Of a DNA stretch of 64,000 nucleotides, positions 6,965-64,000 are shown one piece after another. The notes below the pieces were generated by a model. It had not been told where the DNA came from and searched no databases. It saw nothing but the letters and a program-made list of their open reading frames with translations. Source of the DNA: Candidatus Jorgensenbacteria bacterium GW2011_GWB1_50_10 (lineage in GTDB: Bacteria; Patescibacteriota; Minisyncoccia; UBA6257; GWB1-50-10); the NCBI GenBank assembly GCA_001004105.1, contig LCQK01000003.1:46805-110804 (forward strand), written 5' to 3'. The position numbers and the translations under genes were made by a program. Every line of letters starts with the position of its first letter. Positions within the stretch are counted from its first letter, which is position 1.

Positions 6965-8205
6965 TGAAAAGAACCAATGGCTTCACTCTCATTGAACTTT
7001 TAATCGTCATCGCCATTCTTGCCGTCTTCGCAACGGTGACTGTTTTGGTCATCAACCCCGCCGAGCTCATCAGGGCCCGTCGCGACTCCACCCGGCTCTC
7101 CGACCTTAACACCATCAATAAGACCCTGGGCCTTCTCCAAACCGACCAACCTGGCGCCTCTTTCGGCTCTAGCAACAAGGTTTACGTTTCCATCCCCGAC
7201 ACCTCCGCGACCTGCGTGAACCTCGGCCTGCCCGCCCTCCCTTCCGGCTGGACTTACGGCTGTGTCACAACTGCCAACCTCTACAATGTTAACGGCACGG
7301 GCTGGATTCCTGTGAATCTCATGAGCTTTTCCGCCGGTTCGCCCCTCTCCCGCCTGCCCGTTGACCCCATCAACGCCACCTCAACCGGCAACTACTACAC
7401 CTACGTTACCGGGGGGAGTTGGGAGTTCACCGCTTTCCCGGAATCCTCCAAGTACAAAATGGGCGGCGGGAGCGACAAGACATCAGGTGACGGCGGTCCC
7501 TATCCCGAACTTTTTGAAATCGGTTCCAATTTAGCCCTTCACCCGGTGTCCAGAGACACTTCGCTTAAGGGCTATTGGAATTTTGAAGAGGGAAGCGGAG
7601 CGACGACTTATGACTCTTCGGGCGCCGGTAATGTCGGCACCTGGAACGGTTCAGGCAGTCACTGGGCTTCCGGGCGGGTAGGAACGTATGGGGGGCAATT
7701 CAACGGCACGAATGATTATTTGGATGTTGGAAATACAAGCTCCTTAAATATCACGGGCAATATCACTTTTATGGCTTGGGTTTATCTTACTTCTCTGCCC
7801 GGCACTGGCCAATATCGGGTTATCAATCGGGGCGTTGATGGGGGGTTCGGTATGTATGTAGGCGCTGGCGATCATCCTGATGACATAGAATGCGGTATCC
7901 GAACCTCAAATGGAGGCCGAGCGATATCTTCGGACGGTTACGCTTCAAATATTTTAAATATGTGGACACACTTAGCCTGCGTTTATGACGGGTCGGCCCT
8001 TCGTTTGTATGTGAACGGTTCTCAAATTGGTTCGGCGAGCGCCTCCGGAGAAAACAATGTCGGCGGTTATAATACCAGTGTCCGGATCGGATCGGATTGG
8101 CTACCCGGCAAATTTTTTCCGGGCAGAATTGACACGGTCCGCATTTACGACCGGGGTCTTTCAGCCGATGAAGTACGGGCAATCTATGAATCCGCTAACA
8201 ACTGA
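6961..8205 (+). CDS. type IV pilin-like protein with C-terminal LamG (concanavalin A-like lectin) domain
   Basis: Prepilin leader and methylation motif NGFTLIELLIVIAILAV, then a pilin-like core (GWIPVNL...SPLSRLPVDP). The C-terminal part has YWNFEEGSGATTYDSSG...FNGTNDY and a RIDTVRIYDRGLSADEV LamG signature. Confidence 0.8.
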   Translation: MMKRTNGFTLIELLIVIAILAVFATVTVLVINPAELIRARRDSTRLSDLNTINKTLGLLQTDQPGASFGSSNKVYVSIPDTSATCVNLGLPALPSGWTYGCVTTANLYNVNGTGWIPVNLMSFSAGSPLSRLPVDPINATSTGNYYTYVTGGSWEFTAFPESSKYKMGGGSDKTSGDGGPYPELFEIGSNLALHPVSRDTSLKGYWNFEEGSGATTYDSSGAGNVGTWNGSGSHWASGRVGTYGGQFNGTNDYLDVGNTSSLNITGNITFMAWVYLTSLPGTGQYRVINRGVDGGFGMYVGAGDHPDDIECGIRTSNGGRAISSDGYASNILNMWTHLACVYDGSALRLYVNGSQIGSASASGENNVGGYNTSVRIGSDWLPGKFFPGRIDTVRIYDRGLSADEVRAIYESANN

Positions 8206-12053: not shown

Positions 12054-12749
12054 ATGGCGAAAAAGACGGATGAACTGGTGCAGTTTGCGGGCCACTTCCA
12101 GTCGCTCGCGACTGCGGTTTCCCGCAACCTCGAAGAGCGCGGCGTAAACGTTGTTGAGGCAATCGCGGAGGCCGCAAAGCCGCAAGGCGCTCGGGCGGTC
12201 GCGAAGATCGTAGACGCGCTCGCCGAACTCGTTGAAAACGGCAAGCGGGTCGTCGGCGCTCTCAATCTCATCGTGGCCGACATCGCCGTGAAGACCGAAC
12301 TCTTCACAAAAAATTCGTTCTTCGGCGAGGGGAGCCCAGTAAAACTCTACATCTGGGATAACTTCCGGAACTGGGTACTCACGGCTATCCTTGAGAATAT
12401 ACCTGCGTTCCAGGGTATGCTCGTGAAGCACCAACTCACGAAGGGGATGTATGACTCGGAGATTCTCTCCGGACTCGGGCATCCCACGCCGTTCTCACCA
12501 ACCGAGTTCGCGGCTGTCATTCGCGACCTCATCTCCAAGCAATCGAGAGGCGAGGAGGGCCTTCTCCTCACGAACGGCTACGCCAACATCTTCTATGTAC
12601 AGTTGCCTGCCGGCGCAGGCGGGGAAGATGCACGCGTGGTCGCGGTGCGCGTGACCTGGAACGCCGGGGACGACGACTGGCACCTGGACGCCTACGGCTT
12701 GGACGACGACGGGTGGGGTGACGGTGTCTGCGTGTTCTCTCGCAGCTGA
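12054..12749 (+). CDS. DGR target (variable) protein 1, 231 aa, unassigned family
   Basis: GC-rich ORF whose last 37 codons are the VR. It has no signal peptide or TM segment, and an SD-like AGAGAGG lies upstream of the ATG. A paralog lies at 48342..48932. Confidence 0.85.
   Translation: MAKKTDELVQFAGHFQSLATAVSRNLEERGVNVVEAIAEAAKPQGARAVAKIVDALAELVENGKRVVGALNLIVADIAVKTELFTKNSFFGEGSPVKLYIWDNFRNWVLTAILENIPAFQGMLVKHQLTKGMYDSEILSGLGHPTPFSPTEFAAVIRDLISKQSRGEEGLLLTNGYANIFYVQLPAGAGGEDARVVAVRVTWNAGDDDWHLDAYGLDDDGWGDGVCVFSRS
12602..12623. repeat. decayed copy of the 20-bp palindrome (17/20 with a 2-nt insertion) inside target 1, read as LPAGAGG
   Basis: GTTGCCTGCCGGCGCAGGCGGG lies 9 bp upstream of the VR. 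The paralog has a 6-codon shorter segment at this point (PEDGP versus LPAGAGGEDAR). Confidence 0.6.
12632..12743 (+). repeat. DGR variable repeat VR1
   Basis: 112 bp with 99/112 identity to the TR. All 13 differences lie at TR adenines. Confidence 0.9.
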
Positions 12750-12782
12750 TCTCGGATTTTCGGTCTCTTGGCAATAGTAGTG

Positions 12783-12823
12783 CGCCCCGTTCGAGTTCTT
12801 CGGAACTTGGACGGGGCGTTTTT
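12783..12823 (+). terminator. hairpin with UUCG loop plus T5 downstream of VR1 (intrinsic terminator and/or DGR target-recognition hairpin)
   Basis: 16-bp stem (12783-12798 pairs with 12803-12818, two G-U pairs), loop TTCG, then TTTTT. It starts 40 nt after the end of the VR. Confidence 0.7.
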
Positions 12824-12831
12824 GTTATAAT
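12823..12831 (+). promoter_or_regulatory. extended -10 box TGTTATAAT, candidate promoter of the TR-containing RNA
   Basis: A perfect TGnTATAAT sits directly after the terminator and about 170 nt upstream of the TR. I saw no convincing -35 box. Confidence 0.45.
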
Positions 12832-12998
12832 AAAAATGAAATTTTTTGACATCACTGCGGTCAAGGCTTCAGTGGGAAGATTTCAAAAAACAGAAAGGTC
12901 AGCTGGTGTAGGGCGCTAACGGGTGCGAAAGACCCGGCATTAGATGCAACGCTTAGAGGAATCAAAGCGCAGTGGCAAGGGCGGCGCTTTACACGATA

Positions 12999-13110
12999 AC
13001 GCGTGGTCGCGGTGAACGTGAACTGGAACGCCGAGAACGACGACTGGAACCTGAACGCCAACGGCTTGGACGACGACAGGTGGAATGACGGTAACTGCGT
13101 GTTCTCTCGC
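12999..13110 (+). repeat. DGR template repeat (TR)
   Basis: Non-coding and rich in AAC codons in the VR frame (encodes ...VNVNWNAENDDWNLNANGLDDDRWNDGNCVFSR). It is the adenine-bearing partner of VR1. Confidence 0.9.
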
Positions 13111-13125
13111 CGCTTACCTTTTATA

Positions 13126-13470
13126 TCAGTTCTTTGGGAGCTGTTTTAGCCAACCGCCCAGCATTTTTCCAACTTCGTCAACTTTTCCAGAAAGCGCGGC
13201 GTATTTTTTCGTGTCCAGAGATTTGATTTGCCAGGCAATTTGGAGGAAAAATTTTAGTGAGTCAAGTTTAAAAGAGGAATTCCTGATTTTTGCAAACCGT
13301 TCGGCTGGCGTGAGAGGGGCGGCTGAGAAAATTTCTTCGATAATATCCAAGAAAAGCAAATCTACTTTTACGCCGAGAGTATAGCGCGAGGTTTTGGGAA
13401 AATGAGGCGCGAATTCTTGCCAAAGCGTGTAGGCCGCGATTAGTTTCTGAATAATTGGCAGTTCATTCCG
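13126..13470 (-). CDS. avd: Avd-like accessory variability determinant (four-helix-bundle / 23S-IVS protein family); start codon unresolved
   Basis: The reading frame encodes NELPIIQKLIAAYTLWQEFAPHFPKTSRYTLGVKVDLLFLDIIEEIF...KYAALSGKVDEVGKMLGGWLKQ, a typical Avd pattern. There is no in-frame ATG, GTG or TTG upstream of 13359. An ATG at 13519 is out of frame by one base across a G9 tract. Confidence 0.7.
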   Translation of the reverse strand, partial: RNELPIIQKLIAAYTLWQEFAPHFPKTSRYTLGVKVDLLFLDIIEEIFSAAPLTPAERFAKIRNSSFKLDSLKFFLQIAWQIKSLDTKKYAALSGKVDEVGKMLGGWLKQLPKN

Positions 13471-13472
13471 TC

Positions 13473-13481
13473 GGGGGGGGG
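13473..13481. repeat. homopolymeric G9 (C9 on the avd strand) tract
   Basis: Nine consecutive G, 18-26 nt upstream of the RT ATG and inside the 5' region of avd. Loss of one base would fuse the ATG at 13519 to the avd frame. Confidence 0.9.
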
Positions 13482-13498
13482 TTAGAGGACGGGAATTT

Positions 13499-14482
13499 AT
13501 GAAAATTCAATTGAGCCATAAATTCGAAGATATTATTTCACTGGAAAATCTTTTGGAAGCATGGCGAGAATTTTTGCGCGGCAAGAGAAATAAAAGAGAC
13601 GTTCAGGAATTCTCATCGCGTTTAATGGATAACATTCTATTACTTCACAGCGAACTTCGCAATAAAACCTACAAGCACGGGAAGTACGAAGCCTTTAACA
13701 TCTCCGACCCCAAACCGAGAAACATCCACAAAGCCGCCGTCCGCGACCGCCTACTTCATTACGCTATTTACAGGGTTTTATATCCGTTTTTTGATAAGGT
13801 ATTCATCGCCGATTCTTTTTCCTGCCGTTTGGGAAAAGGGACGCACAGAGCCATCAACCGCTTTAGAACTTTTGCTTATAAAGTGAGTAAAAATAATACC
13901 AAAACCTGCTGGGTTTTAAAGTTGGATATTAGGAAATTCTTCGCGAGTATTGACCATGAAATTTTGATAAAAATTCTTGAGGAATACATACCCGACCAAG
14001 ACATTATCTGGTTGCTGAAGAAAGTGATAGAAAGTTTTTATTCGACCGAACCCGGCAAGGGCCTGCCTTTAGGCAATTTAACCTCCCAGCTTTTAGTAAA
14101 TGTTTACATGAACAAGTTTGACCAATTTGTGAAACACAAGTTCAAGGCCAAGTATTACGTGAGATACGCCGATGATTTTGTGATTGTGTCGAAAAACGGA
14201 ATATGGCTTGAAAGTTTAATTCCGAGAATCAGCGAATTTCTAAACAGAGAATTGAAGTTAAAACTTCACGACGATAAGATATTCATTAAAACTTTAGCTT
14301 CGGGAGTAGATTTCCTTGGCTGGGTTCACTTTCCGGATTACCGAGTTCTGCGAACCACGACCAAAAGAAGAATGTTTAAAAGAATCAAAGAACATCCCGC
14401 GCCGGAAACAATAAATTCTTATTTGGGATTATTAAGGCACGGGAACGCTTATAAATTAAAAAGAAAAATTATTGCTGAATAA
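13499..14482 (+). CDS. DGR-type reverse transcriptase
   Basis: 327 aa. The N-terminus reads [20 protein letters not shown]. Motif 4 [20 protein letters not shown] carries the SQ typical of DGR RTs, and the catalytic motif is [11 protein letters not shown]. There is no maturase or endonuclease extension, and the gene is visibly AT-rich. Confidence 0.9.
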
Positions 14483-15248: not shown

Positions 15249-15268
15249 CCTGCCTGCCGGCAGGCAGG
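15249..15268. repeat. 20-bp palindrome, copy 2 (junction between prfA stop and the displaced prfA 3' remnant)
   Basis: Exact CCTGCCTGCCGGCAGGCAGG, 6 nt after the prfA stop codon. Confidence 0.95.
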
Positions 15269-15379
15269 CGCACCTATAATTTTCCGCAGGACAGGATAAC
15301 CGACCACCGTCAGGGCAAAAAGGTTTCAAATATTCTGAAAGTTCTCGACGGCGATTTGGACAAACTAACCGGCCGTTAA
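15269..15379 (+). pseudogene. displaced original 3' end of prfA (36 codons plus stop, out of frame with prfA)
   Basis: Encodes [36 protein letters not shown]. It shares the 17-mer TATAATTTTCCGCAGGA with 15123-15139 and is GC-rich like the prfA core. Confidence 0.75.
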
Positions 15380-16870
15380 AATTTCTATATCCTTTTGGAA
15401 TTGCTGGGCTTTCACGACCACCGGTTCGCCGTAAGCCCAGCGGTAGTAATACCACCGGCCACCGGCGTAGTATCTTGCCGCGGCGCAGCGTTCGGCAAGG
15501 ACTTGGGCATCGGCGATGTTTCTGTTTTCGCTCACGTAATTCCGGCAAGCGCTGGAATTCAGGGCGTCTTTGAGATACAAGGAAGTCGCAACGAAAGCGT
15601 CGGCGTTTGACCAGGGATTGGAAGGAGTTTGGCCGGTGATTTTCCCAATATAATCCTTGCTTTGGTTATACTCCCAGGAACTGCCGTTTTTCTCCCAACC
15701 GCCGTAGATGGCCCAGGTTGAGGGAATGAATTGGGCCGGGCCCATGGCGCCGCCGTAGGCGCCGTCTCTGTTGGCACAGGAAACCTTCGCCACGGTTGAA
15801 TTCGGGTCAATGCCGAGCTTGGAAAGAATGGCGAGGAAAATCGGAACGTCGCGGGTGGGGTGCATGGCGCCCTGGTAGCTGCAGCGGCCGACGTTTTTCC
15901 CCAGAAGAGATTCTTGCTGAAGAATGGCGAGAAGAAAAGCGGCCCGGACCCCGGTTGCGCCTTCGGCAAGGCGGGCGTATTTATAGGCCTCTTCAAAAGT
16001 GAGTTCGCCGCCTCCCAAAAGACGGAAAATTCTGCTTCTTATTTGAGCGGCAGTGGCTTGGGTTTCTTTCAGGATTTTTTGGTATTCGGATTCTTTGCCT
16101 TTGGTTACGGTCAGAAGCTGATTTTTTTCCGCTTGGGTCGTCGCGACGCTCTTTTTTTGCGATTCCTGATAATTCTTGAGATTTTCCACGTCGGATTTTT
16201 CCGCGGCGAGCTCCTGTTTTTGCTCAAGCAATTCCACCCGAAGGGCGACAACTTCGTTTAAGGCCGTCCGGATGTTGGACTGAACCAGGGTTATGTTGTT
16301 GACGTCACCGAAGAAATCCGAAAGATTGGCATTGGCCAGCAACACCTCGATCAAGCTTTGGGCGTCGGCTTCATAGAGGTCGCGGACGCCTCTCGCAAGG
16401 GCCGTTTTATGGCCGTCAATTCTGTTTTCGGTAACGTTTATGTTCTTTTGAGTGCTCGTTATTTCGTCGTCCAATTTCTGGAGATTCAGGTTGACCGCTT
16501 TAATTTGGAGGTTCAACTGGCTGATTTTGGCGTTCAGGGATTTTATTTCGTTAGTGAGGGTTTTGCCCTGTTTTTGATATTCGGCAACCGTACTTTGATG
16601 TTCAAGGATTTGGCGCTCCAATTCGGCAAGTTCGTTTTCAAGTTTCTCCCGTTCTTCCTGGCTGGTCGCGCCGTTTTCCGTGCCCGTCATCTCGGCTGCC
16701 TGGGTCGGAGTGTTCAGTTTGGTTCCGAGAAGAAGCCCCGAAAAAGCGAGGAGAACCAAAACTCCTCCTACGAATTTGATTGATTTGGTAAGAGGGATCC
16801 GGATAGCGGTCGAATAGGAGAGATTGAGACGTCTTTTACGGCTGGCCTTAATATCGTAGATTTTGCGCAT
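15365..16870 (-). CDS. membrane-anchored coiled-coil protein with C-terminal lytic-transglycosylase-like domain
   Basis: N-terminal TM segment and a long heptad-like region ([16 protein letters not shown]...). The C-terminal part has [12 protein letters not shown] and [13 protein letters not shown], which are SLT/MltB-like motifs. Confidence 0.7.
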
Positions 16871-16979: not shown

Positions 16980-17669
16980 TTATTTTTTCTTCTCTTCTTC
17001 CTTGGGCGGTGTTTCTTTTTTCTCCGGCTCCGCTGCCTGCCTGCCGGTAGGCATGGCTTTCGCTTCGGTTTCGGCCGGAGCGGCCGGTGTTTCGGCTATC
17101 GGAGGCGGCGCAACAACTTCCTCCTTCACTTTTTCGGTTACGGTCGCAATCACGGTTTCCTCCGGCGCGAGAATTTTTACTTCGGAAGGCGCGCGCAGGT
17201 CGCTAACGTGGATGCTGTCGCCCATTTTCTCCAGCTTGCCCAAATCAACCTGAAAGGAGTGGGGGATTTTGTCGGGTAGGGATTTGACTTCAATTTCGTG
17301 CAGCACCCGGACGATCACCAAACCGGCTTTTTCCGCCGGAGCGGTGCCTGTGAATTCCACCGGCACTTTTGTTTCAATCGCCTCATCCATTTTAATTTGA
17401 TGGAAATTCACCGAAAGCGTTTTTCTGGTCAGGGGATGTTCCTGAACCTCGGAAATTAAGATTGGAATTTTTCCGCCCTTCTCGTTTATCAAATAAACGA
17501 CGGTGTGGCTGCCGGCTTTGCGGTAGACTTTAACGAAATCGTTTTCCGAAACGGCAAGGTGCTGGTTTAGAACGCCGCTCCCGAAAAGTTCGGCCGGAAC
17601 CAAACCCGCCCTCCGGAGGGATTTCACTTTTTTCCCCAAAATTTCCCTTGTTTTGACTGCGAGTTCCAT
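16980..17669 (-). CDS. rplY: 50S ribosomal protein L25/Ctc with low-complexity C-terminal tail
   Basis: GKKVKSLRRAGLVPAELFG N-terminus and the two-domain Ctc form. The Glu/Lys/Pro-rich tail contains a decayed palindrome copy. Confidence 0.85.
   Translation of the reverse strand: MELAVKTREILGKKVKSLRRAGLVPAELFGSGVLNQHLAVSENDFVKVYRKAGSHTVVYLINEKGGKIPILISEVQEHPLTRKTLSVNFHQIKMDEAIETKVPVEFTGTAPAEKAGLVIVRVLHEIEVKSLPDKIPHSFQVDLGKLEKMGDSIHVSDLRAPSEVKILAPEETVIATVTEKVKEEVVAPPPIAETPAAPAETEAKAMPTGRQAAEPEKKETPPKEEEKKK
17036..17055. repeat. decayed copy (18/20) of the 20-bp palindrome inside the rplY tail (MPTGRQA)
   Basis: CCTGCCTGCCGGTAGGCATG, with two substitutions relative to the consensus. Confidence 0.7.
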
Positions 17670-17912: not shown

Positions 17913-17932
17913 CCTGCCTGCCGGCAGGCAGG
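17913..17932. repeat. 20-bp palindrome, copy 3 (12 nt upstream of rpmE start codon)
   Basis: Exact 20-mer. On the rpmE strand its 3' end together with the next base reads AGGGAG, 9 nt before the ATG. Confidence 0.95.
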
Positions 17933-20359: not shown

Positions 20360-20440
20360 TTTATTCAAGTAAACCTAGGTTGCATACCCCCTGTGGATAA
20401 GTGCACTATCCGGGAGGGGTTAATTTGATATACTAAAAGA

Positions 20441-21038
20441 ATGAAAAAAGGTTTTACTCTTATCGAGCTTCTGGTCGTTATCGCCATTTTGGCGGTTCTT
20501 GCGACCGCAGTGGTCTTGGCTATCAACCCGGCCGAGCTCGGCCGAGCTCATTCGGCAGGCGCGGGATTCCACGAGAATCTCGGATTTGGCGGCAATAAAC
20601 AGCGCCATCGCTCTCTATTTGTCGGACATTACTTCTCCCGGCTTGGGTGGTCCGAATGGTGCTTCCTGCACTAACGCTGCCCGTTGCACTTCTGGGACAA
20701 CCGAATTTTTCTCGGCGAGCATTGGGAGCTGCGGGACAAACGCCACGACCACTGTTGACGGCAACGGCTGGGTGTCGGTTGATTTAGCGGACATCTCGAG
20801 CGGTTCGCCGCTCTCCCGTCTGCCCCTTGACCCCAATAATGGCCAAGGAAGCGGCGATTGCGCCGCCGATGGCACGACTATTTGCTTCTACGCCTTCGGC
20901 TGTAATGGCACGAACTACGAAATTAACGCGGTAATGGAGAGCACGAAATTCGCCGATGACGGCGGTGCCGCCGTTGAAGATACGGACGGCGGGGACCAAC
21001 TGGATATCTACGAAGTAGGGAACAATCTAGCCCTATAG
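20441..21038 (+). pseudogene. type IV pilin gene A, frameshifted by a 10-bp tandem duplication
   Basis: MKKGFTLIELLVVIAILAVLATAVVLAINPAEL runs in frame 1. GGCCGAGCTC is then duplicated (20530-20539 and 20540-20549), and the pilin continues in another frame (IRQARDSTRISDLAAINS...EVGNNLAL*). Removing one unit restores a pilin of about 195 aa. Confidence 0.8.
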
Positions 21039-21043
21039 CTTCA

Positions 21044-21596
21044 ATGAAAAAAGGTTTTACTCTTATCGAGCTTCTGGTCGTTATCGCCATTTTGGCGGTT
21101 CTTGCGACCGCAGTGGTCTTGGCTATCAACCCGGCGCGTTTCTGACATTGCCGCGGTTAATAGTGCGGTTATTCTTTATCTTGCTGATGTTAGAACTCCT
21201 GGCTTAGGCGGTCCTAATGATGCGGCCTGTTCTTCGGCAACGGAACGTTGCACTGCCTCAAGCACAACAGCCAGGAAAACCGGCGGCGGTTCTTGCACCA
21301 CGCATAATACATCAACTATCGTTGACGGCAACGGTTGGGTGTCGGTTGATTTTTTGAATATTTCTTCGGATTCACCGCTATCTCGACTGCCATTCGACCC
21401 GAATAATGGGTCAACTATCTGCGGAACAGGCGTTAATGCTTGCTACTACTCATTTATTTGCAACGGCACAAGTTTTGAGATAAATGGCGCGATGGAGAGT
21501 ACTAAATTTTCTAATACTGGCGGCTCTGACGTGGAGTCCGATGATGGCGGCAATCAGGCAGACCTCTACGAGGTAGGCAACAAGCTGGATATTTAA
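21044..21596 (+). pseudogene. type IV pilin gene B, frameshifted by a deletion of about 32 nt
   Basis: The first 92 nt are identical to gene A. After INPA, the region coding ELIRQARDST is missing (1 nt in place of 33), which gives a stop at 21140-21142. The rest of the pilin (RVSDIAAVNS...EVGNKLDI*) continues in another frame. Confidence 0.75.
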
Positions 21597-27700: not shown

Positions 27701-27765
27701 TATTAGAAGGACTATAACATTAGAAGCAGATTCAAGTTTATCCGCTTCTATTAAAAAATTTCAAT

Positions 27766-27799
27766 GCTTCAATTTATCCCATATGGGATAAATTGAAGC
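27766..27799. terminator. 34-bp perfect palindrome, bidirectional terminator between convergent genes
   Basis: GCTTCAATTTATCCCA TA TGGGATAAATTGAAGC has a 16-bp stem and lies between the 27700 (+) and 27846 (-) gene ends. Confidence 0.65.
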
Positions 27800-27845
27800 G
27801 GGTCTAAATTTTACTAAACAACCTTAACTTTTCTCCTACCAACCT

Positions 27846-48228: not shown

Positions 48229-48341
48229 GAAGTTGACAAGATTAGATTTTTGTGCTAAAGCTTAAACTAGCACGAACTGGCAACCTAAAGCCCCAACGAA
48301 TGTTGAGGGTGAGAGGAAACCATAACAAGGAGAGGCAAAGA

Positions 48342-48932
48342 ATGATGAAGGGAACGAACGGACTCGAGTGGCTTGCGGACCGCTGGCAGTCGGTTGCGAC
48401 TGCAGTTCCCCGCCGCTTTGAGAATCGTGGAGTTAGCGGCGGGGAGGTAATTGCCGCCGTAACCAAGCCCCAGACCAGGAGTATTGTGGTCCAGACCGAG
48501 CCCTTTGCTAAGGACTCGTTCTTTGGGGAGAGCGGTCCCGCGGAGCTCTGCATTTGGGACAACTTCCGAACCCAGGTGCTATCAGCAGTTTCCGAGACCG
48601 TGCCCGCGTTTCGAGGCACGCTCACGAGAACTGAGCTTGAGGAGCACATGGGGGACTCCGAGATTTTCGCCAACGGGACATCCCGGCCGCTCCTCTCGCC
48701 GGACGATTTTGTTGCGGTCGTCCGTGACCTCATCTCCCGCCAGCCGAGAGGTGAGAGGGGAATCCTTCTCACAAACGGGGATGCCAACATCTTCCATGTG
48801 CAGCCGGAGGATGGACCTGTGGTTGCGGTGCGTGGGCGCTGGCGCGTTGGTCTCGGCGGTTGGAGCCTGCGCGCGTATGGCCGGGACGACGTCAGATGGC
48901 TCAAAGGCCACTGCGTGTTCTCCCGCGGCTGA
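48342..48932 (+). CDS. DGR target-family paralog 2 (196 aa) with diverged VR-like C-terminus
   Basis: The start at ATG 48342 follows AAGGAGAGG, and [22 protein letters not shown] aligns with the MAKKTDELVQFAGHFQSLATAV start of target 1. Shared blocks include IWDNFR, PAF.G, VIRDLIS.Q.RGE.G.LLTNG.ANIF.VQ and the C-terminal CVFSR. Confidence 0.8.
48819..48926 (+). repeat. VR-like repeat (VR2), diverged from the TR at both adenine and non-adenine positions
   Basis: Aligns codon-for-codon with TR 13003-13110. By hand count there are about 19 mismatches at TR adenines and about 17 elsewhere. The conserved ends are GTGGT.GCGGTG and CTGCGTGTTCTC.CGC. Confidence 0.6.
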
Positions 48933-48965
48933 CCCATCTACCGCAGTTCTCGCAAAGTAGCACAG

Positions 48966-48998
48966 ACAGGCCGCAAGAGGTTTCCTCTTGCGGCCTGT
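48966..48998 (+). terminator. perfect 15-bp hairpin downstream of VR2 (terminator and/or DGR-type hairpin)
   Basis: ACAGGCCGCAAGAGG TTT CCTCTTGCGGCCTGT, then TCCTGTTTTT. It starts 40 nt after the end of VR2, the same spacing as at VR1. Confidence 0.7.
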
Positions 48999-49062
48999 TC
49001 CTGTTTTTACTAAACTTGAGATACTACCCCTATATGAACCAAAAAGAGGGGCAGTTTCTGTT

Positions 49063-53416: not shown

Positions 53417-53458
53417 TGTGCCTCAAAAACTCAGTATATGCTGAGTTTTTGAGGCACA
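53417..53458. terminator. 18-bp-stem hairpin after the PaaX-like gene (second family member)
   Basis: TGTGCCTCAAAAACTCAG TATATG CTGAGTTTTTGAGGCACA. Confidence 0.65.
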
Positions 53459-53503: not shown

Positions 53504-55267
53504 ATGTCAGAAACGAGAATTTGCCAGAATTGCAAGCAACAATTCACGATTGAGCCGGACGATTTCGCGTTTTATAAAAAGATAAGCGTCCCGCCACCGA
53601 CGTGGTGCCCGGAGTGCAGGTTAGTGAGAAGGTTAATTGTTCGTAATGAACGGAGTTTGTATAGAAGAATCTGTGATCTTTGTGGAAAAGAGAAAATAAT
53701 GATGTTTTATCCTCAAAGTCCTTTCAAGGTATATTGCTACGAATGTTGGTTTGGCGATAACTGGAATCCAATGGGGTATGGGAAAGAATATGACTTTTCA
53801 CAGCCCTTTTTCGAACAGTTTAGTGATTTGCTCCATGTGGTACCGAGGCCGGGGATTCTAAAACAAGGATTCGCTATTGAGAGTGAATACACCAACCGAG
53901 TCAGCGAAATTAGAAATTGTTATCTTATTTTTGGCTCAACAGCTAGCGAAAACTGTTTTTACGGTTCGTGGGTAAATGATTCTAAAGAATGCGTTGACTG
54001 TTACAACCTCGGCAAATGCGAAAGATGTTATGACTGCACCGATTGTGTCGGTTGCTATAACCTTCAGTACTCTCGTGACTGCCATAGTTGCAGTAATTCT
54101 TATTTTCTTTTGAATTGCCGCAACTGCGAGAGTTGCTTTGGTTGCACGAATCTCCGCAATAAAAGCTACTGTGTTTTTAATAAACAATACGGCAAGGAGG
54201 AATATCAAAAACTACTCGAGGAACACAATTTGAAAAGCTCAGCCGCTATCAAAAGACTCCAGTCCCGGTTCATTTCGGAGCGTTCCAAGCATATTGTGCC
54301 GTCAATAATCCAACATCACAGTACGGATGTAAGCGGTAACTGGATTGAAGAATCCAAGAATGTTCATTACAGCTTCAACTGCCGAAATGTCGAGGATGGT
54401 AAGTACGTACTGGCGGCAGTAATTGCAAAAGATGTAATGGATTATGCTCATTTCGGACGCGGCGTTGAACGTATTTATGATTCAATCAACATTGGCCGCC
54501 AAGCCTCATCCGTCTTTTTTAGCAATGAAAGCTGGGACCAATCTTCAAATTTGCAGTATTGCATGAATTGCCGAGGTTCACAGAACCTTTTCGGGTGCAT
54601 CGGAGTTCGTAACAAAAGTTACTGTATCTTGAACAGGGAATATACCAAAGAAGAATACGAGAAGCTGGTTCCCCGCATTATTGAGCACATGAATACTATG
54701 CCCTACGCCGACAAGAAAGATAGGGTATACAAGTACGGCGAATTTTTCCCGCCGGAAATAACGCCATTCGCTTATAACGAGTCCCTCTCCCAAGAATTTT
54801 TTCCTCTAACAAAAGAAAGAGCGTCAGAACTCGGGTACCGCTGGAAAGATGAAGAGAATCGGAGCTACAAGATAACTGTAAAAAATAACGAAATTCCTGA
54901 TACTATTCGACTTGTTTCCGACGCGATACTCGATGATGTCATTGGCTGCGAACATGGTGGAAAATGCAACGAACAGTGCACGACGGCTTTTAAAATTGTT
55001 CCTCAAGAGCTTAATTTTTATAGACAATTTAATATTCCCCTTCCAAATCTTTGTCCCAACTGCCGTCATTATCAGAGATTAAAACAAAGAAATCCCCTAA
55101 AGCTTTGGCACAGAAAATGTATGTGTGATTACCAGGTTTATAAAAATACGGTGAAGCACGTTCATCATCCGGAAGGAAAGTGCCCGAACGAATTTAAAAC
55201 GTCCTACGCCCCCGAGAGGCCGGAAATCGTCTACTGCGAGCAGTGTTATAATTTCGAGGTAGTATGA
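53504..55267 (+). CDS. cysteine-rich protein with N- and C-terminal zinc-ribbon-like modules and internal Cys-repeat region
   Basis: CQNCKQQFTIEPDDFAFYKKISVPPPTWCPECR, repeated C..C..C.NL..S..C units (residues about 150-215), and a C-terminal CPNCRHYQRLK...CEQCY. A TATAAT box at 53490-53495 lies 8 nt before the ATG. Confidence 0.6.
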   Translation: MSETRICQNCKQQFTIEPDDFAFYKKISVPPPTWCPECRLVRRLIVRNERSLYRRICDLCGKEKIMMFYPQSPFKVYCYECWFGDNWNPMGYGKEYDFSQPFFEQFSDLLHVVPRPGILKQGFAIESEYTNRVSEIRNCYLIFGSTASENCFYGSWVNDSKECVDCYNLGKCERCYDCTDCVGCYNLQYSRDCHSCSNSYFLLNCRNCESCFGCTNLRNKSYCVFNKQYGKEEYQKLLEEHNLKSSAAIKRLQSRFISERSKHIVPSIIQHHSTDVSGNWIEESKNVHYSFNCRNVEDGKYVLAAVIAKDVMDYAHFGRGVERIYDSINIGRQASSVFFSNESWDQSSNLQYCMNCRGSQNLFGCIGVRNKSYCILNREYTKEEYEKLVPRIIEHMNTMPYADKKDRVYKYGEFFPPEITPFAYNESLSQEFFPLTKERASELGYRWKDEENRSYKITVKNNEIPDTIRLVSDAILDDVIGCEHGGKCNEQCTTAFKIVPQELNFYRQFNIPLPNLCPNCRHYQRLKQRNPLKLWHRKCMCDYQVYKNTVKHVHHPEGKCPNEFKTSYAPERPEIVYCEQCYNFEVV

Positions 55268-63630: not shown

Positions 63631-63936
63631 ATGGTTTTAATTTACACTACCTGCAAAGACGTGGAACAGGCGAAAAAGCTGGGGCAAACGCTCGTGGAAA
63701 AGAAACTCGCCGCCTGCGTCAATGTTTGGCCCTTGAATACCATGTACTTCTGGGAGGGGAAGCTTACTGATGACACCGAGGCGGCACTTCTCATAAAGAC
63801 GAACGAGCCGAAGATTGCCGAGGTTGAGAGTTTCATTTTGAAGAATCACTCTTATTCCACCCCTTTTGTCGGGTCGGTTCTTGTTCACCGTTTGAATCGC
63901 GAATACAAAGAATGGATGGGAACGGTGCTGGCTTAA
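63631..63936 (+). CDS. cutA: divalent-cation tolerance protein CutA
   Basis: LIYTTC...LAACVNV...YFWEGK...EAALLIKT...HSYSTP pattern. Confidence 0.85.
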   Translation: MVLIYTTCKDVEQAKKLGQTLVEKKLAACVNVWPLNTMYFWEGKLTDDTEAALLIKTNEPKIAEVESFILKNHSYSTPFVGSVLVHRLNREYKEWMGTVLA

Positions 63937-64000
63937 GAAGCTGTCAAAACTGTAAGCAAGAATTCCGAATTGAGCCGGAAGATTTCGATTTTTATGAAAA
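63912..64000 (+). CDS. N-terminal fragment of a second Cys-rich zinc-ribbon protein (paralog of 53504..55267; 3' end outside window)
   Basis: MDGNGAGLRSCQNCKQEFRIEPEDFDFYE matches CQNCKQQFTIEPDDFAFYK. It overlaps the end of cutA by 25 nt. Confidence 0.55.
   Translation, partial: MDGNGAGLRSCQNCKQEFRIEPEDFDFYE

What the first reader, a model, noticed from the sequence alone, without database searches (positions are those of the whole stretch)
12744..12823. Equally spaced strong hairpins 40 nt downstream of both VRs
Downstream of VR1 there is a 16-bp stem with a UUCG tetraloop at 12783-12818, followed by T5. Downstream of VR2 there is a perfect 15-bp stem at 48966-48998, followed by a T-rich run.

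The hairpin sequences differ. In both loci, however, the hairpin starts exactly 40 nt after the last shared VR base (12743->12783 and 48926->48966). The spacers share short motifs (xGCTGAyC..., GCAAyAGTAG).

In the Bordetella phage DGR, a hairpin/cruciform just 3' of the VR/IMH is required for efficient target recognition (Guo et al. 2011). Conserved spacing with non-conserved sequence fits a structural rather than purely terminator role, although both hairpins also look like ordinary intrinsic terminators.
Basis: partly seen in the sequence, partly recalled or inferred. Interest (0 to 1): 0.5.

Follow-up and report, generated by a model that had tools for sequence, protein, structure and literature searches.

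The report
Terminator hairpins after DGR target genes
Two strong stem-loops that follow two related hypervariable-protein genes of a groundwater Jorgensenbacteria (CPR) genome are real and look like ordinary transcription terminators; such a hairpin follows almost every gene of this family, but its distance from the variable region is not conserved, so the exact equal spacing in this genome carries little meaning.

Summary
Both hairpins exist as described. HP1 (12783-12818) has 16 bp including 2 G·U pairs, a C(UUCG)G loop and a T5 run. HP2 (48966-48998) has 15 perfect bp. Each starts 39 nt after the conserved Arg codon that ends the variable region, and 34 nt after the TGA stop.

Only the first locus is a current DGR target: VR1 differs from the TR at 13 adenine sites and at no other site. 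"VR2" is a 46%-identical paralogue between uvrB and uvrA, with 20 non-adenine mismatches.

In 131 non-redundant homologous loci from other CPR genomes, 124 (95%) have a hairpin plus T-run after the variable region. That includes all 59 loci with their own TR, against 21% of other ORF ends. The distance runs from 3 to 108 nt, and from 26 to 76 nt among the closest relatives.

The position that is conserved is hairpin-to-TR (191-193 nt in the close clade). The T-run abuts a TATAAT box and a conserved leader.

T-runs, UUCG loops and sense-strand G·U pairs point to RNA-level intrinsic terminators. A second role as the known DGR homing stem-loop is possible but untested. Hairpins downstream of VRs, at flexible distance, were described by Guo et al. 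in 2011.

The parts
12054..12749 (+). DGR target gene 1 (231 aa, no Pfam domain, ends CVFSRS*). It is 100% identical to a hypothetical protein of Candidatus Jorgensenbacteria GW2011_GWA1.
   Evidence: ORF list. No Pfam match. P0001 is 100% identical.
12632..12743 (+). VR1, the active variable repeat.
   Evidence: Ungapped match to TR 12999-13110. It has 13 mismatches at the 27 TR adenines and 0 elsewhere.
12728..12771 (+). IMH-like 3' end of VR1 plus its flank. The first 16 nt are identical to the TR; the next 28 nt are a diverged copy of the TR flank and include the stop codon at 12747-12749.
   Evidence: Repeat D1 extends to 12771/13138. Register comparison.
12782..12823 (+). HP1: stem 12783-12798 / 12803-12818, loop TTCG 12799-12802, optional G·U pair 12782/12819, and T5 run 12819-12823. 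It looks like an intrinsic terminator.
   Evidence: Orthologous hairpins show covariation.
12823..12831 (+). TGTTATAAT, a putative extended -10 box that directly abuts the T-run. This assignment is inferred.
   Evidence: The TATAAT box is conserved at the same place in L083, L169, L165 and L166, with one-base variants in L084 and L002. The promoter scan did not call it because there is no -35 element.
12832..12998 (+). Conserved leader between the hairpin/promoter and the TR. It is probably the 5' part of the TR RNA.
   Evidence: Alignment A4. The hairpin-to-TR distance is 191-193 nt in W, L083 and L084. No Rfam match.
12999..13110 (+). Template repeat (TR).
13127..13147 (+). Weak 6-bp hairpin (CAGTTC/GAGCTG) plus TTTT, just after the TR and overlapping the end of avd on the other strand.
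   Evidence: DNA fold. In 21 of 59 family loci a hairpin follows the TR, in most of them starting 11-14 nt after its end.
13126..13455 (-). Avd accessory protein, encoded on the opposite strand.
   Evidence: Pfam bAvd, E = 1.6e-14. The same layout is seen in L165 and L166.
13499..14482 (+). DGR reverse transcriptase.
   Evidence: Pfam RVT_1, E = 9.7e-27.
48300..48932 (+). Paralogue of the target gene (46% aa identity), located between uvrB and uvrA, ending CVFSRG*.
   Evidence: The gene call of P0014 in L161 is 100% identical in DNA over the aligned 3' part of the gene and the flank up to the uvrA start.
48815..48926 (+). VR-like region ('VR2'). It is diverged and is not a current copy of the window's TR.
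   Evidence: It has 19 of 27 A-site and 20 of 86 non-A mismatches to the TR. The A-site enrichment has p = 1.5e-5.
48962..49008 (+). HP2: perfect core 48966-48980 / 48984-48998, loop TTT, outer 4 bp 48962-48965 / 49001-49004 across a 2-nt bulge, and T5 run 49004-49008. It looks like an intrinsic terminator, about 55 nt upstream of the uvrA start codon.

Best explanation
HP1 and HP2 are Rho-independent (intrinsic) transcription terminators of two paralogous genes of one DGR target family in a Jorgensenbacteria (CPR) genome.

HP1 belongs to a conserved class of long, G+C-based hairpins that follows essentially every variable region of this family. Members often have UUCG loops and are always followed by a T-run. 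HP1 ends the target-gene transcript immediately before a -10 box and a conserved leader that start the separate TR RNA. It therefore insulates the template RNA from read-through. HP2 ends the paralogue's transcript ahead of uvrA.

The identical 39-nt spacing reflects a 3' flank of common origin with no net indel. VR1, VR2, the TR and L169 share this flank in or near the same register. The spacing is not a conserved constraint.

Shown here: the structures, their T-runs, their family-wide presence, the variable VR-to-hairpin distance, the fixed hairpin-to-TR distance, and covariation.

Inferred: actual termination, promoter activity of the TATAAT box, and insulation. Whether HP1 also serves as the DGR homing stem-loop remains open.
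For: - Structure and significance.
- T-run directly after the helix: 69 of 75 strong hairpins near targets have at least 5 T in the next 8 nt.
- Family-wide presence: 124 of 131 targets against 69 of 330 other ORF ends. At -20 kcal/mol or lower it is 96 of 131 against 22 of 330, Fisher p about 1e-47. All 59 DGR-linked VRs have one.
- Spacing from the VR end varies from 26 to 76 nt in the close clade and from 3 to 108 nt overall.
- The hairpin-to-TR distance is 191, 192 and 193 nt in W, L083 and L084. In those same loci the VR-to-hairpin distance is 39, 58 and 72.
- The T-run abuts a conserved TATAAT box and leader.
- Signs of RNA-level selection on the sense strand:
  - 127 of 996 stem pairs are G·U.
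  - The sense RNA is more stable than the antisense RNA in 54 of 68 unique hairpins, and less stable in 4. For HP1 the values are -31.7 and -22.0 kcal/mol.
  - C(UUCG)G loops occur in 35 of 124 targets against 0 of 69 other hairpins. The extra stability of UUCG loops in RNA but not in DNA is stated from my own knowledge.
- HP2 is kept behind a gene that shows no recent homing.
- Hairpins are equally frequent at family members with and without a TR in the fetched locus: 36 of 66 against 34 of 61.
- Compensatory changes occur in 7 of 13 basal pairs of HP1's orthologues.
Against: - There are no transcript-end data, so termination is inferred from sequence alone.
- A generic terminator would not need the conserved stem-base sequence. 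GACCC is found in 59 of 124 and GGGTC in 55 of 124 target hairpins, against 0 of 69 other terminator-like hairpins.
- A generic terminator would also not be about 5-fold (at -14 kcal/mol) to 11-fold (at -20 kcal/mol) commoner after these genes than after their neighbours. Both facts leave room for a DGR-specific function.
- The loci are phylogenetically related, so the Fisher tests overstate independence.
- Sense-strand G·T pairs would also be compatible with a hairpin in single-stranded sense DNA.
- Exact equality of spacing has only about 1-4% prior chance.
Confidence: 0.7

Rival explanations
1. Dual-function element. The hairpin is a terminator and is also the stem-loop that the DGR machinery uses for efficient retrohoming, as in Bordetella phage BPP-1. 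It forms in transiently single-stranded sense DNA next to the IMH and keeps the target open for cDNA pairing. In this family the DGR has adapted to terminator-type hairpins, much as group IIC introns target terminators.
For: - It is present in all 59 DGR-linked VRs. All 7 targets without a hairpin lack a TR in the fetched locus (p = 0.016).
- There is strong enrichment over other gene ends.
- The conserved stem-base motif GACCC/GGGTC is absent from other terminators in the same contigs.
- Measured from the end of the diverged VR/TR flank homology (12771), HP1 starts 11 nt away. That is inside the 4-34 bp range of Guo et al..
- No strong hairpin follows the TR in this window.
- Guo et al. themselves proposed targeting upstream of terminator-like stem-loops.
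- Deleting the stem-loop strongly lowers BPP-1 homing in E. coli (PMC12875486).
Against: - The loops are UUCG or UUU, not the GRNA loop that is sequence-critical in BPP-1.
- The stems are 15-16 bp against the optimal 8-10 bp; longer insertions reduced BPP-1 activity.
- The distance from the VR is very variable.
- HP2 has the hairpin at the same distance, yet its VR-like region has 20 non-A mismatches and so shows no recent homing.
- Hairpins are equally common with and without a nearby TR.
- A small hairpin also follows the TR in 21 of 59 loci.
Confidence: 0.3
2. Spacing-dependent structural signal. The hairpin must sit exactly 40 nt from the VR end for target recognition, and this is why both loci have the same distance despite different hairpin sequences.
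For: - The distance is identical in the two loci.
- The chance of identity for unrelated family members is about 1.3%.
Against: - The closest homologues have 26, 29, 36, 43, 51, 57, 71 and 76 nt, and several of them are active DGR targets with A-only mismatches: L083, L084 and L002.
- The second locus is not an active VR of this TR.
- The start of HP2 shifts by 4 nt if the bulged outer helix is counted.
- In BPP-1, extending the spacer by 6 bp did not move the integration site, and the natural range is 4-34 bp.
Confidence: 0.05
3. The hairpins have no selected function. They are chance inverted repeats or remnants of mobile-element ends.
For: Other strong hairpins without T-runs exist in the window: 27765-27800 and 53417-53458.
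Against: - z is about -8.
- A hairpin is present in 95% of homologous loci, with compensatory substitutions.
- The placement is consistent: after the stop codon and before a T-run.
Confidence: 0.02

Closest known systems
Rho-independent (intrinsic) transcription terminators
   Same: - G+C-rich stem-loop immediately followed by a T/U-run.
- On the sense strand, 34 nt after a stop codon, in an intergenic gap.
- C(UUCG)G tetraloop.
- G·U pairs tolerated.
- Structure conserved through compensatory changes.
   Different: - In this family the stem base carries a conserved sequence (GACCC...GGGTC; GCCCC...GGGGC in HP1) that is not seen in other terminator-like hairpins of the same contigs.
- The element is about 5-fold (-14 kcal/mol) to 11-fold (-20 kcal/mol) commoner after these genes than after their neighbours.
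DGR target-site hairpin/cruciform downstream of VR/IMH (Bordetella phage BPP-1; Guo et al. 2011, PMC3240598)
   Same: - Inverted repeat just 3' of the variable repeat of an active DGR target.
- In this window, no comparable strong hairpin after the TR.
- The stem sequence varies while pairing is kept.
- The distance to the VR is flexible.
   Different: - Stems are 15-16 bp instead of 7-10 bp.
- Loops are UUCG or UUU instead of GRNA.
- The hairpin is followed by a T-run.
- The distance from the last shared VR base is 39 nt, outside the 4-34 bp range unless it is measured from the end of the diverged flank homology.
- One of the two hairpins follows a gene that is not being diversified.
Group IIC intron target sites (insertion downstream of terminator stem-loops)
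   Same: A retroelement related to DGRs recognises terminator-type stem-loops as single-stranded DNA, with structure dependence but no dependence on stem sequence (as discussed in PMC3240598).
   Different: Nothing is inserted here. Any use of the hairpin by the DGR is hypothetical.

Membership tests
Intrinsic (Rho-independent) terminator | Stable G+C-rich stem-loop in the transcript | tested here: met
   HP1 is -32.2 and HP2 is -31.2 kcal/mol as RNA, z about -8.
Intrinsic (Rho-independent) terminator | U-run directly 3' of the helix | tested here: met
   HP1 has T5 at 12819-12823. HP2 has T5 at 49004-49008, directly after the extended bulged helix and 5 nt after the perfect core.
Intrinsic (Rho-independent) terminator | Located after the stop codon on the coding strand, at the end of a transcription unit | tested here: met
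   Both start 34 nt after the TGA. HP1 is followed by a TATAAT box and the TR leader; HP2 is followed by the uvrA upstream region.
Intrinsic (Rho-independent) terminator | Transcripts actually end there | not testable with these tools
   This needs Term-seq, 3' RACE or metatranscriptome read ends.
DGR VR-proximal hairpin/cruciform (BPP-1 type) | Lies just downstream of the VR/IMH of a target that the DGR diversifies | tested here: inconclusive
   Met for HP1, because VR1 has A-only mismatches. Not met for HP2, because there are 20 non-A mismatches to the TR.
DGR VR-proximal hairpin/cruciform (BPP-1 type) | G+C-rich stem of 7-10 bp | tested here: not met
   The stems are 16 bp and 15 bp (19 bp with the bulged extension).
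DGR VR-proximal hairpin/cruciform (BPP-1 type) | 4-nt loop with GRNA on the sense strand | tested here: not met
   The loops are TTCG and TTT. Across the family, TTCG occurs in 35 of 124 and GAAA/GCAA in 9 of 124.
DGR VR-proximal hairpin/cruciform (BPP-1 type) | 4-34 bp from the 3' end of the VR | tested here: inconclusive
   The distance is 39 nt from the last base identical to the TR, but 11 nt from the end of the diverged VR/TR flank homology at 12771. The family range is 3-108 nt.
DGR VR-proximal hairpin/cruciform (BPP-1 type) | Absent after the TR (IMH*) | tested here: inconclusive
   There is no strong hairpin after the TR in the window (z = +1.2), only a 6-bp hairpin plus TTTT at 13127-13147. 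In 21 of 59 family TRs a hairpin of -14 to -22 kcal/mol follows.
DGR VR-proximal hairpin/cruciform (BPP-1 type) | Needed for efficient retrohoming | not testable with these tools
   This needs a homing assay.

The most novel reading that the evidence does not exclude
In this CPR lineage the DGR may have co-opted a specific terminator-type hairpin as its target-site signal. The hairpin has a conserved GACCC/GGGTC (or GCCCC/GGGGC) stem base, often a UUCG loop, and a T-run. One element would then end the target mRNA, insulate the TR-RNA promoter that abuts it, and mark the adjacent variable region for cDNA integration. That would be a DGR counterpart of group IIC intron targeting of terminators. 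It would explain why the hairpin is nearly universal after these genes, why it is sequence-constrained, and why it is rare elsewhere in the same genomes.
Probability: 0.25. Interest if true: 0.6.

Novelty: new member of a known kind. Interest (0 to 1): 0.3.

Why it matters
How DGR cDNA finds and replaces its target is still unresolved (PMC12875486). The stem-loop after the VR is one of only two known cis signals.

This family gives a large natural data set: 131 loci, 59 of them with their own TR. The hairpin is nearly universal, terminator-like, sequence-constrained at its base and free in its spacing.

That argues against a ruler-like spacing model. It also supplies concrete variants for a reconstituted assay. 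In addition, it defines the likely boundaries of the TR RNA unit (promoter, leader, TR, small 3' hairpin) in CPR DGRs, which have no experimental system.

As it stands, the finding itself is an ordinary pair of terminators next to a known type of element.

Tried and rejected
- **Rfam** (E up to 1) around both loci gave only chance miRNA hits.
- **Orthologue of the second locus.** The only close orthologue found (L161) is 100% identical in DNA, so it gives no information on covariation or on VR2 variability.
- **P0025** turned out to share only the N-terminal part of the protein and has no VR.
- **First hairpin detector.** It allowed only perfect or G·U stems, one mismatch and loops of 3-8 nt, and it under-called: 50-67% of targets. 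Inspecting the 'negatives' showed bulged or large-loop hairpins ending in GGGTC plus a T-run. I replaced it with a fold-based detector and applied the same detector to controls.
- **Loci with two targets** (L066, L068), and the 7 targets without a hairpin, could not show whether loss of the hairpin goes with loss of diversification. No TR was present in those loci.
- **Recent duplication** as the cause of equal spacing was considered and rejected. VR1's protein is closer to proteins of other genomes (up to 59%) than to its paralogue (46%).

Full report
**What is in the window**

The first locus is a complete diversity-generating retroelement (DGR).
- A 231-aa gene (12054-12749, +) ends in a variable repeat, VR1 (12632-12743).
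- A template repeat (TR) lies at 12999-13110 on the same strand.
- An Avd gene lies on the opposite strand (13126 to about 13455; Pfam bAvd, E = 1.6e-14).
- A reverse transcriptase follows (13499-14482; RVT_1, E = 9.7e-27).
- VR1 differs from the TR at 13 of the 27 TR adenines and at no other position. This is the signature of current adenine mutagenesis.
- The target protein is 100% identical to a hypothetical protein of Candidatus Jorgensenbacteria GW2011_GWA1, a CPR bacterium.

The second locus is a paralogue (about 48300-48932, +) with 46% amino-acid identity. It sits between uvrB and uvrA.
- Its VR-like region (48815-48926) has 19 mismatches at TR adenines and also 20 mismatches at the 86 other positions.
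- The excess at adenine sites is significant (p = 1.5e-5). It is therefore probably an old or foreign-template VR.
- It is not a present-day copy of this TR.

**The observation**

Both hairpins are real and lie at the stated coordinates.
- HP1: 12783-12798 pairs with 12803-12818. It has 16 bp including two G·U pairs, a C(UUCG)G loop, and T5 at 12819-12823.
- HP2: 48966-48980 pairs with 48984-48998. It has 15 perfect bp and a UUU loop.
- As RNA they fold at -32.2 and -31.2 kcal/mol, with z about -8 and 0 of 200 shuffles as good. As DNA they fold at -16.6 and -20.2 kcal/mol.
- Both start 39 intervening nt after the Arg codon of the conserved C-terminal CVFSR motif, and 34 nt after the TGA stop.

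Two caveats apply.
- In the minimum-free-energy fold HP2 extends through a 2-nt bulge to 48962/49004. Only that longer helix abuts its T5 run at 49004-49008. The 'start' of HP2 therefore depends on the definition used.
- The spacers are only 16/39 identical without gaps (p about 0.04).

**Comparative test of the spacing claim**

The target protein belongs to a family found in CPR/Patescibacteria. I fetched 160 loci from genome and metagenome collections, plus loci of six of the closest homologues.

About half of the non-redundant loci carry their own TR with almost only A-site mismatches. This is therefore a genuine DGR target family. The codon aligned to Arg230 is a good proxy for the VR end, because strict VR/TR identity stops 0-10 nt after it in most loci.

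In the closest clade (43-59% identity, same CVFSRS* ending) every locus with enough flank has a strong hairpin plus T-run. The intervening distances are:

| Locus | Distance (nt) |
|---|---|
| L001 | 26 |
| L082 | 29 |
| L170 | 36 |
| Window, both loci | 39 |
| L165, L166, L168, L169 | 43 |
| L002 | 51 |
| L083 | 57 |
| L084 | 71 |
| L167 | 76 |

L083, L084 and L002 are active targets with A-only or nearly A-only mismatches.

Across the family the distance runs from 3 to 108 nt, with a median near 55.

Pairs of family members with dissimilar hairpins share exactly the same distance in 1.3% of cases. The equality in this genome is thus mildly unusual but was noticed post hoc.

The simplest account is a 3' flank of common origin without net indels.
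- VR1 and VR2 align in one register for about 30 nt past the Arg codon.
- The TR flank is offset from that register by 1 nt.
- L169 aligns with VR1 without internal gaps up to the hairpin.

**What is conserved**

*Presence.* I used a fold-based detector that requires a single hairpin domain of -14 kcal/mol or lower, directly followed by at least 5 T in 8 nt.

| Set | Hairpin at -14 or lower | Hairpin at -20 or lower |
|---|---|---|
| Target loci | 124 of 131 | 96 of 131 |
| Other ORF ends in the same contigs | 69 of 330 | 22 of 330 |
| Other ORF ends in the window | 8 of 48 | 3 of 48 |

The target-versus-other comparison gives Fisher p about 1e-52 and 1e-47. All 59 DGR-linked VRs have the hairpin.

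*Position relative to the TR.* In W, L083 and L084 the hairpin end lies 191, 192 and 193 nt before the same point in the TR, the start of its last 100 nt. In the same three loci the VR-to-hairpin distance is 39, 58 and 72. In the wider family the hairpin-to-TR distance clusters at about 253-299 nt.

The alignment shows why. The T-run abuts a conserved TATAAT box (12826-12831; TGTTATAAT from 12823). This is followed by a conserved leader of about 170 nt that runs into the TR. All the indels lie between the stop codon and the hairpin.

*Sequence class.* Target hairpins carry GACCC at the 5' base in 59 of 124 loci, GGGTC at the 3' base in 55 of 124, and UUCG loops in 35 of 124. None of these occurs in any of the 69 other terminator-like hairpins.

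HP1 (GCGCCCCGTTCGAG...) shares its basal helix with L083, L167, L001, L082, L084 and L170. Compensatory changes occur in 7 of 13 pairs. HP2 has none of these sequence features.

**RNA or DNA**
- Of 75 strong hairpins near targets that were found without asking for a T-run, 69 are followed by one.
- 127 of 996 stem pairs are G·U on the sense strand.
- The sense RNA is more stable than the antisense RNA in 54 of 68 unique hairpins, and the reverse holds in 4. For HP1 the values are -31.7 and -22.0 kcal/mol.
- C(UUCG)G is an RNA-specific extra-stable loop; this is from my own knowledge.

The BPP-1 class of DGR hairpins differs. It has 7-10 bp stems and GRNA loops whose sequence is critical, and it lies 4-34 bp from the VR at a 'quite flexible' distance (PMC3240598; criteria restated in PMC6602519). 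A survey found inverted repeats after only 34% of DGRs and terminators after a minority (PMC5758913).

The features here therefore fit intrinsic terminators best. Sense-strand G·T pairs would also be compatible with a hairpin in single-stranded sense DNA. That is the state proposed to help cDNA pairing in the recent E. coli reconstitution, where deleting the stem-loop strongly reduced homing but did not abolish it (PMC12875486).

**Interpretation**

The best-supported reading (confidence about 0.7) is as follows.
- Both hairpins are intrinsic terminators.
- HP1 ends the target mRNA right before the promoter and leader of the TR RNA, and so separates the two transcripts.
- HP2 ends the paralogue's mRNA ahead of uvrA.

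A generic terminator does not explain two facts: the near-universal presence and the base-sequence constraint in this family. These keep a dual role as the DGR homing stem-loop alive (about 0.3).

Three facts count against that dual role.
- The loops are not GRNA and the stems are long.
- HP2 persists without homing.
- Hairpins are equally frequent with and without a nearby TR (36 of 66 against 34 of 61).

The spacing-ruler idea is contradicted (about 0.05).

**Novelty**

Hairpins after VRs, with flexible distance and a suspected link to terminators, were described in 2011. This is a new, well-populated example of a known kind, with a terminator-type variant of the hairpin. I score interest at 0.3.

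Noticed in passing
window 12823-12998; L083, L084, L169, L165, L166, L002: Directly after HP1's T-run there is a conserved TATAAT box and then a conserved leader of about 170 nt that runs into the TR. Conserved blocks include GAAATTTTTTGA, GGTCAGCTGGTG and GCGCAGTG. It has no Rfam match. It is probably the promoter and the structured 5' part of the TR RNA in this DGR clade.
   Followed up: partly
window 13127-13147; 21 of 59 family loci: A small hairpin plus T-run follows the TR, in most of these loci starting 11-14 nt after the TR end. In the window it is a weak 6-bp stem that overlaps the stop codon of avd on the other strand. It may be the 3' end or the priming structure of the TR RNA.
   Followed up: partly
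window 13126-13497 (- strand): Avd is encoded on the strand opposite to the target, TR and RT; L165 and L166 have the same layout. The reading frame is open to 13497, but the mechanical ORF starts only at a TTG at 13359, while the Pfam bAvd match begins upstream, near 13413. The start codon is therefore unclear.
   Followed up: no
window 48815-48926: The VR-like region of the paralogue between uvrB and uvrA differs from the TR preferentially at TR adenines (19 of 27 against 20 of 86). This fits a decayed VR or one served by another TR outside the window. It is identical in a second assembly (L161).
   Followed up: partly
L083 4532-4575, L167 3170-3220, L084 283-320: In some close relatives the VR-to-terminator spacer carries an additional small hairpin, for example TCCGCTGGAGGCGGA or CCCGACTGCCTGACGCAGTCAGGCGGG. 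This accounts for their longer spacing.
   Followed up: no
window 15249-15268 and 17913-17932: The same 20-nt palindrome, CCTGCCTGCCGGCAGGCAGG, occurs twice, 2.6 kb apart. It brackets two minus-strand ORFs (15365-16870 and 16980-17669).
   Followed up: no
window 27765-27800 and 53417-53458: Two other very strong hairpins (16 bp at -23.5 kcal/mol and 19 bp at -30.9 kcal/mol) are not followed by a T-run. Their role is unknown.
   Followed up: no
window 6969-7376, 20440-20842, 21043-21409: There are three paralogous genes with type IV pilin-like N-termini (KGFTLIELLVVIAIL). Two of the N-terminal segments are 100% identical over 93 nt.
   Followed up: no
window 53516-53580 and 63936-64000: A 65-nt direct repeat (78% identity) lies at the starts of two ORFs about 10 kb apart. 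The second copy runs off the end of the window.
   Followed up: no
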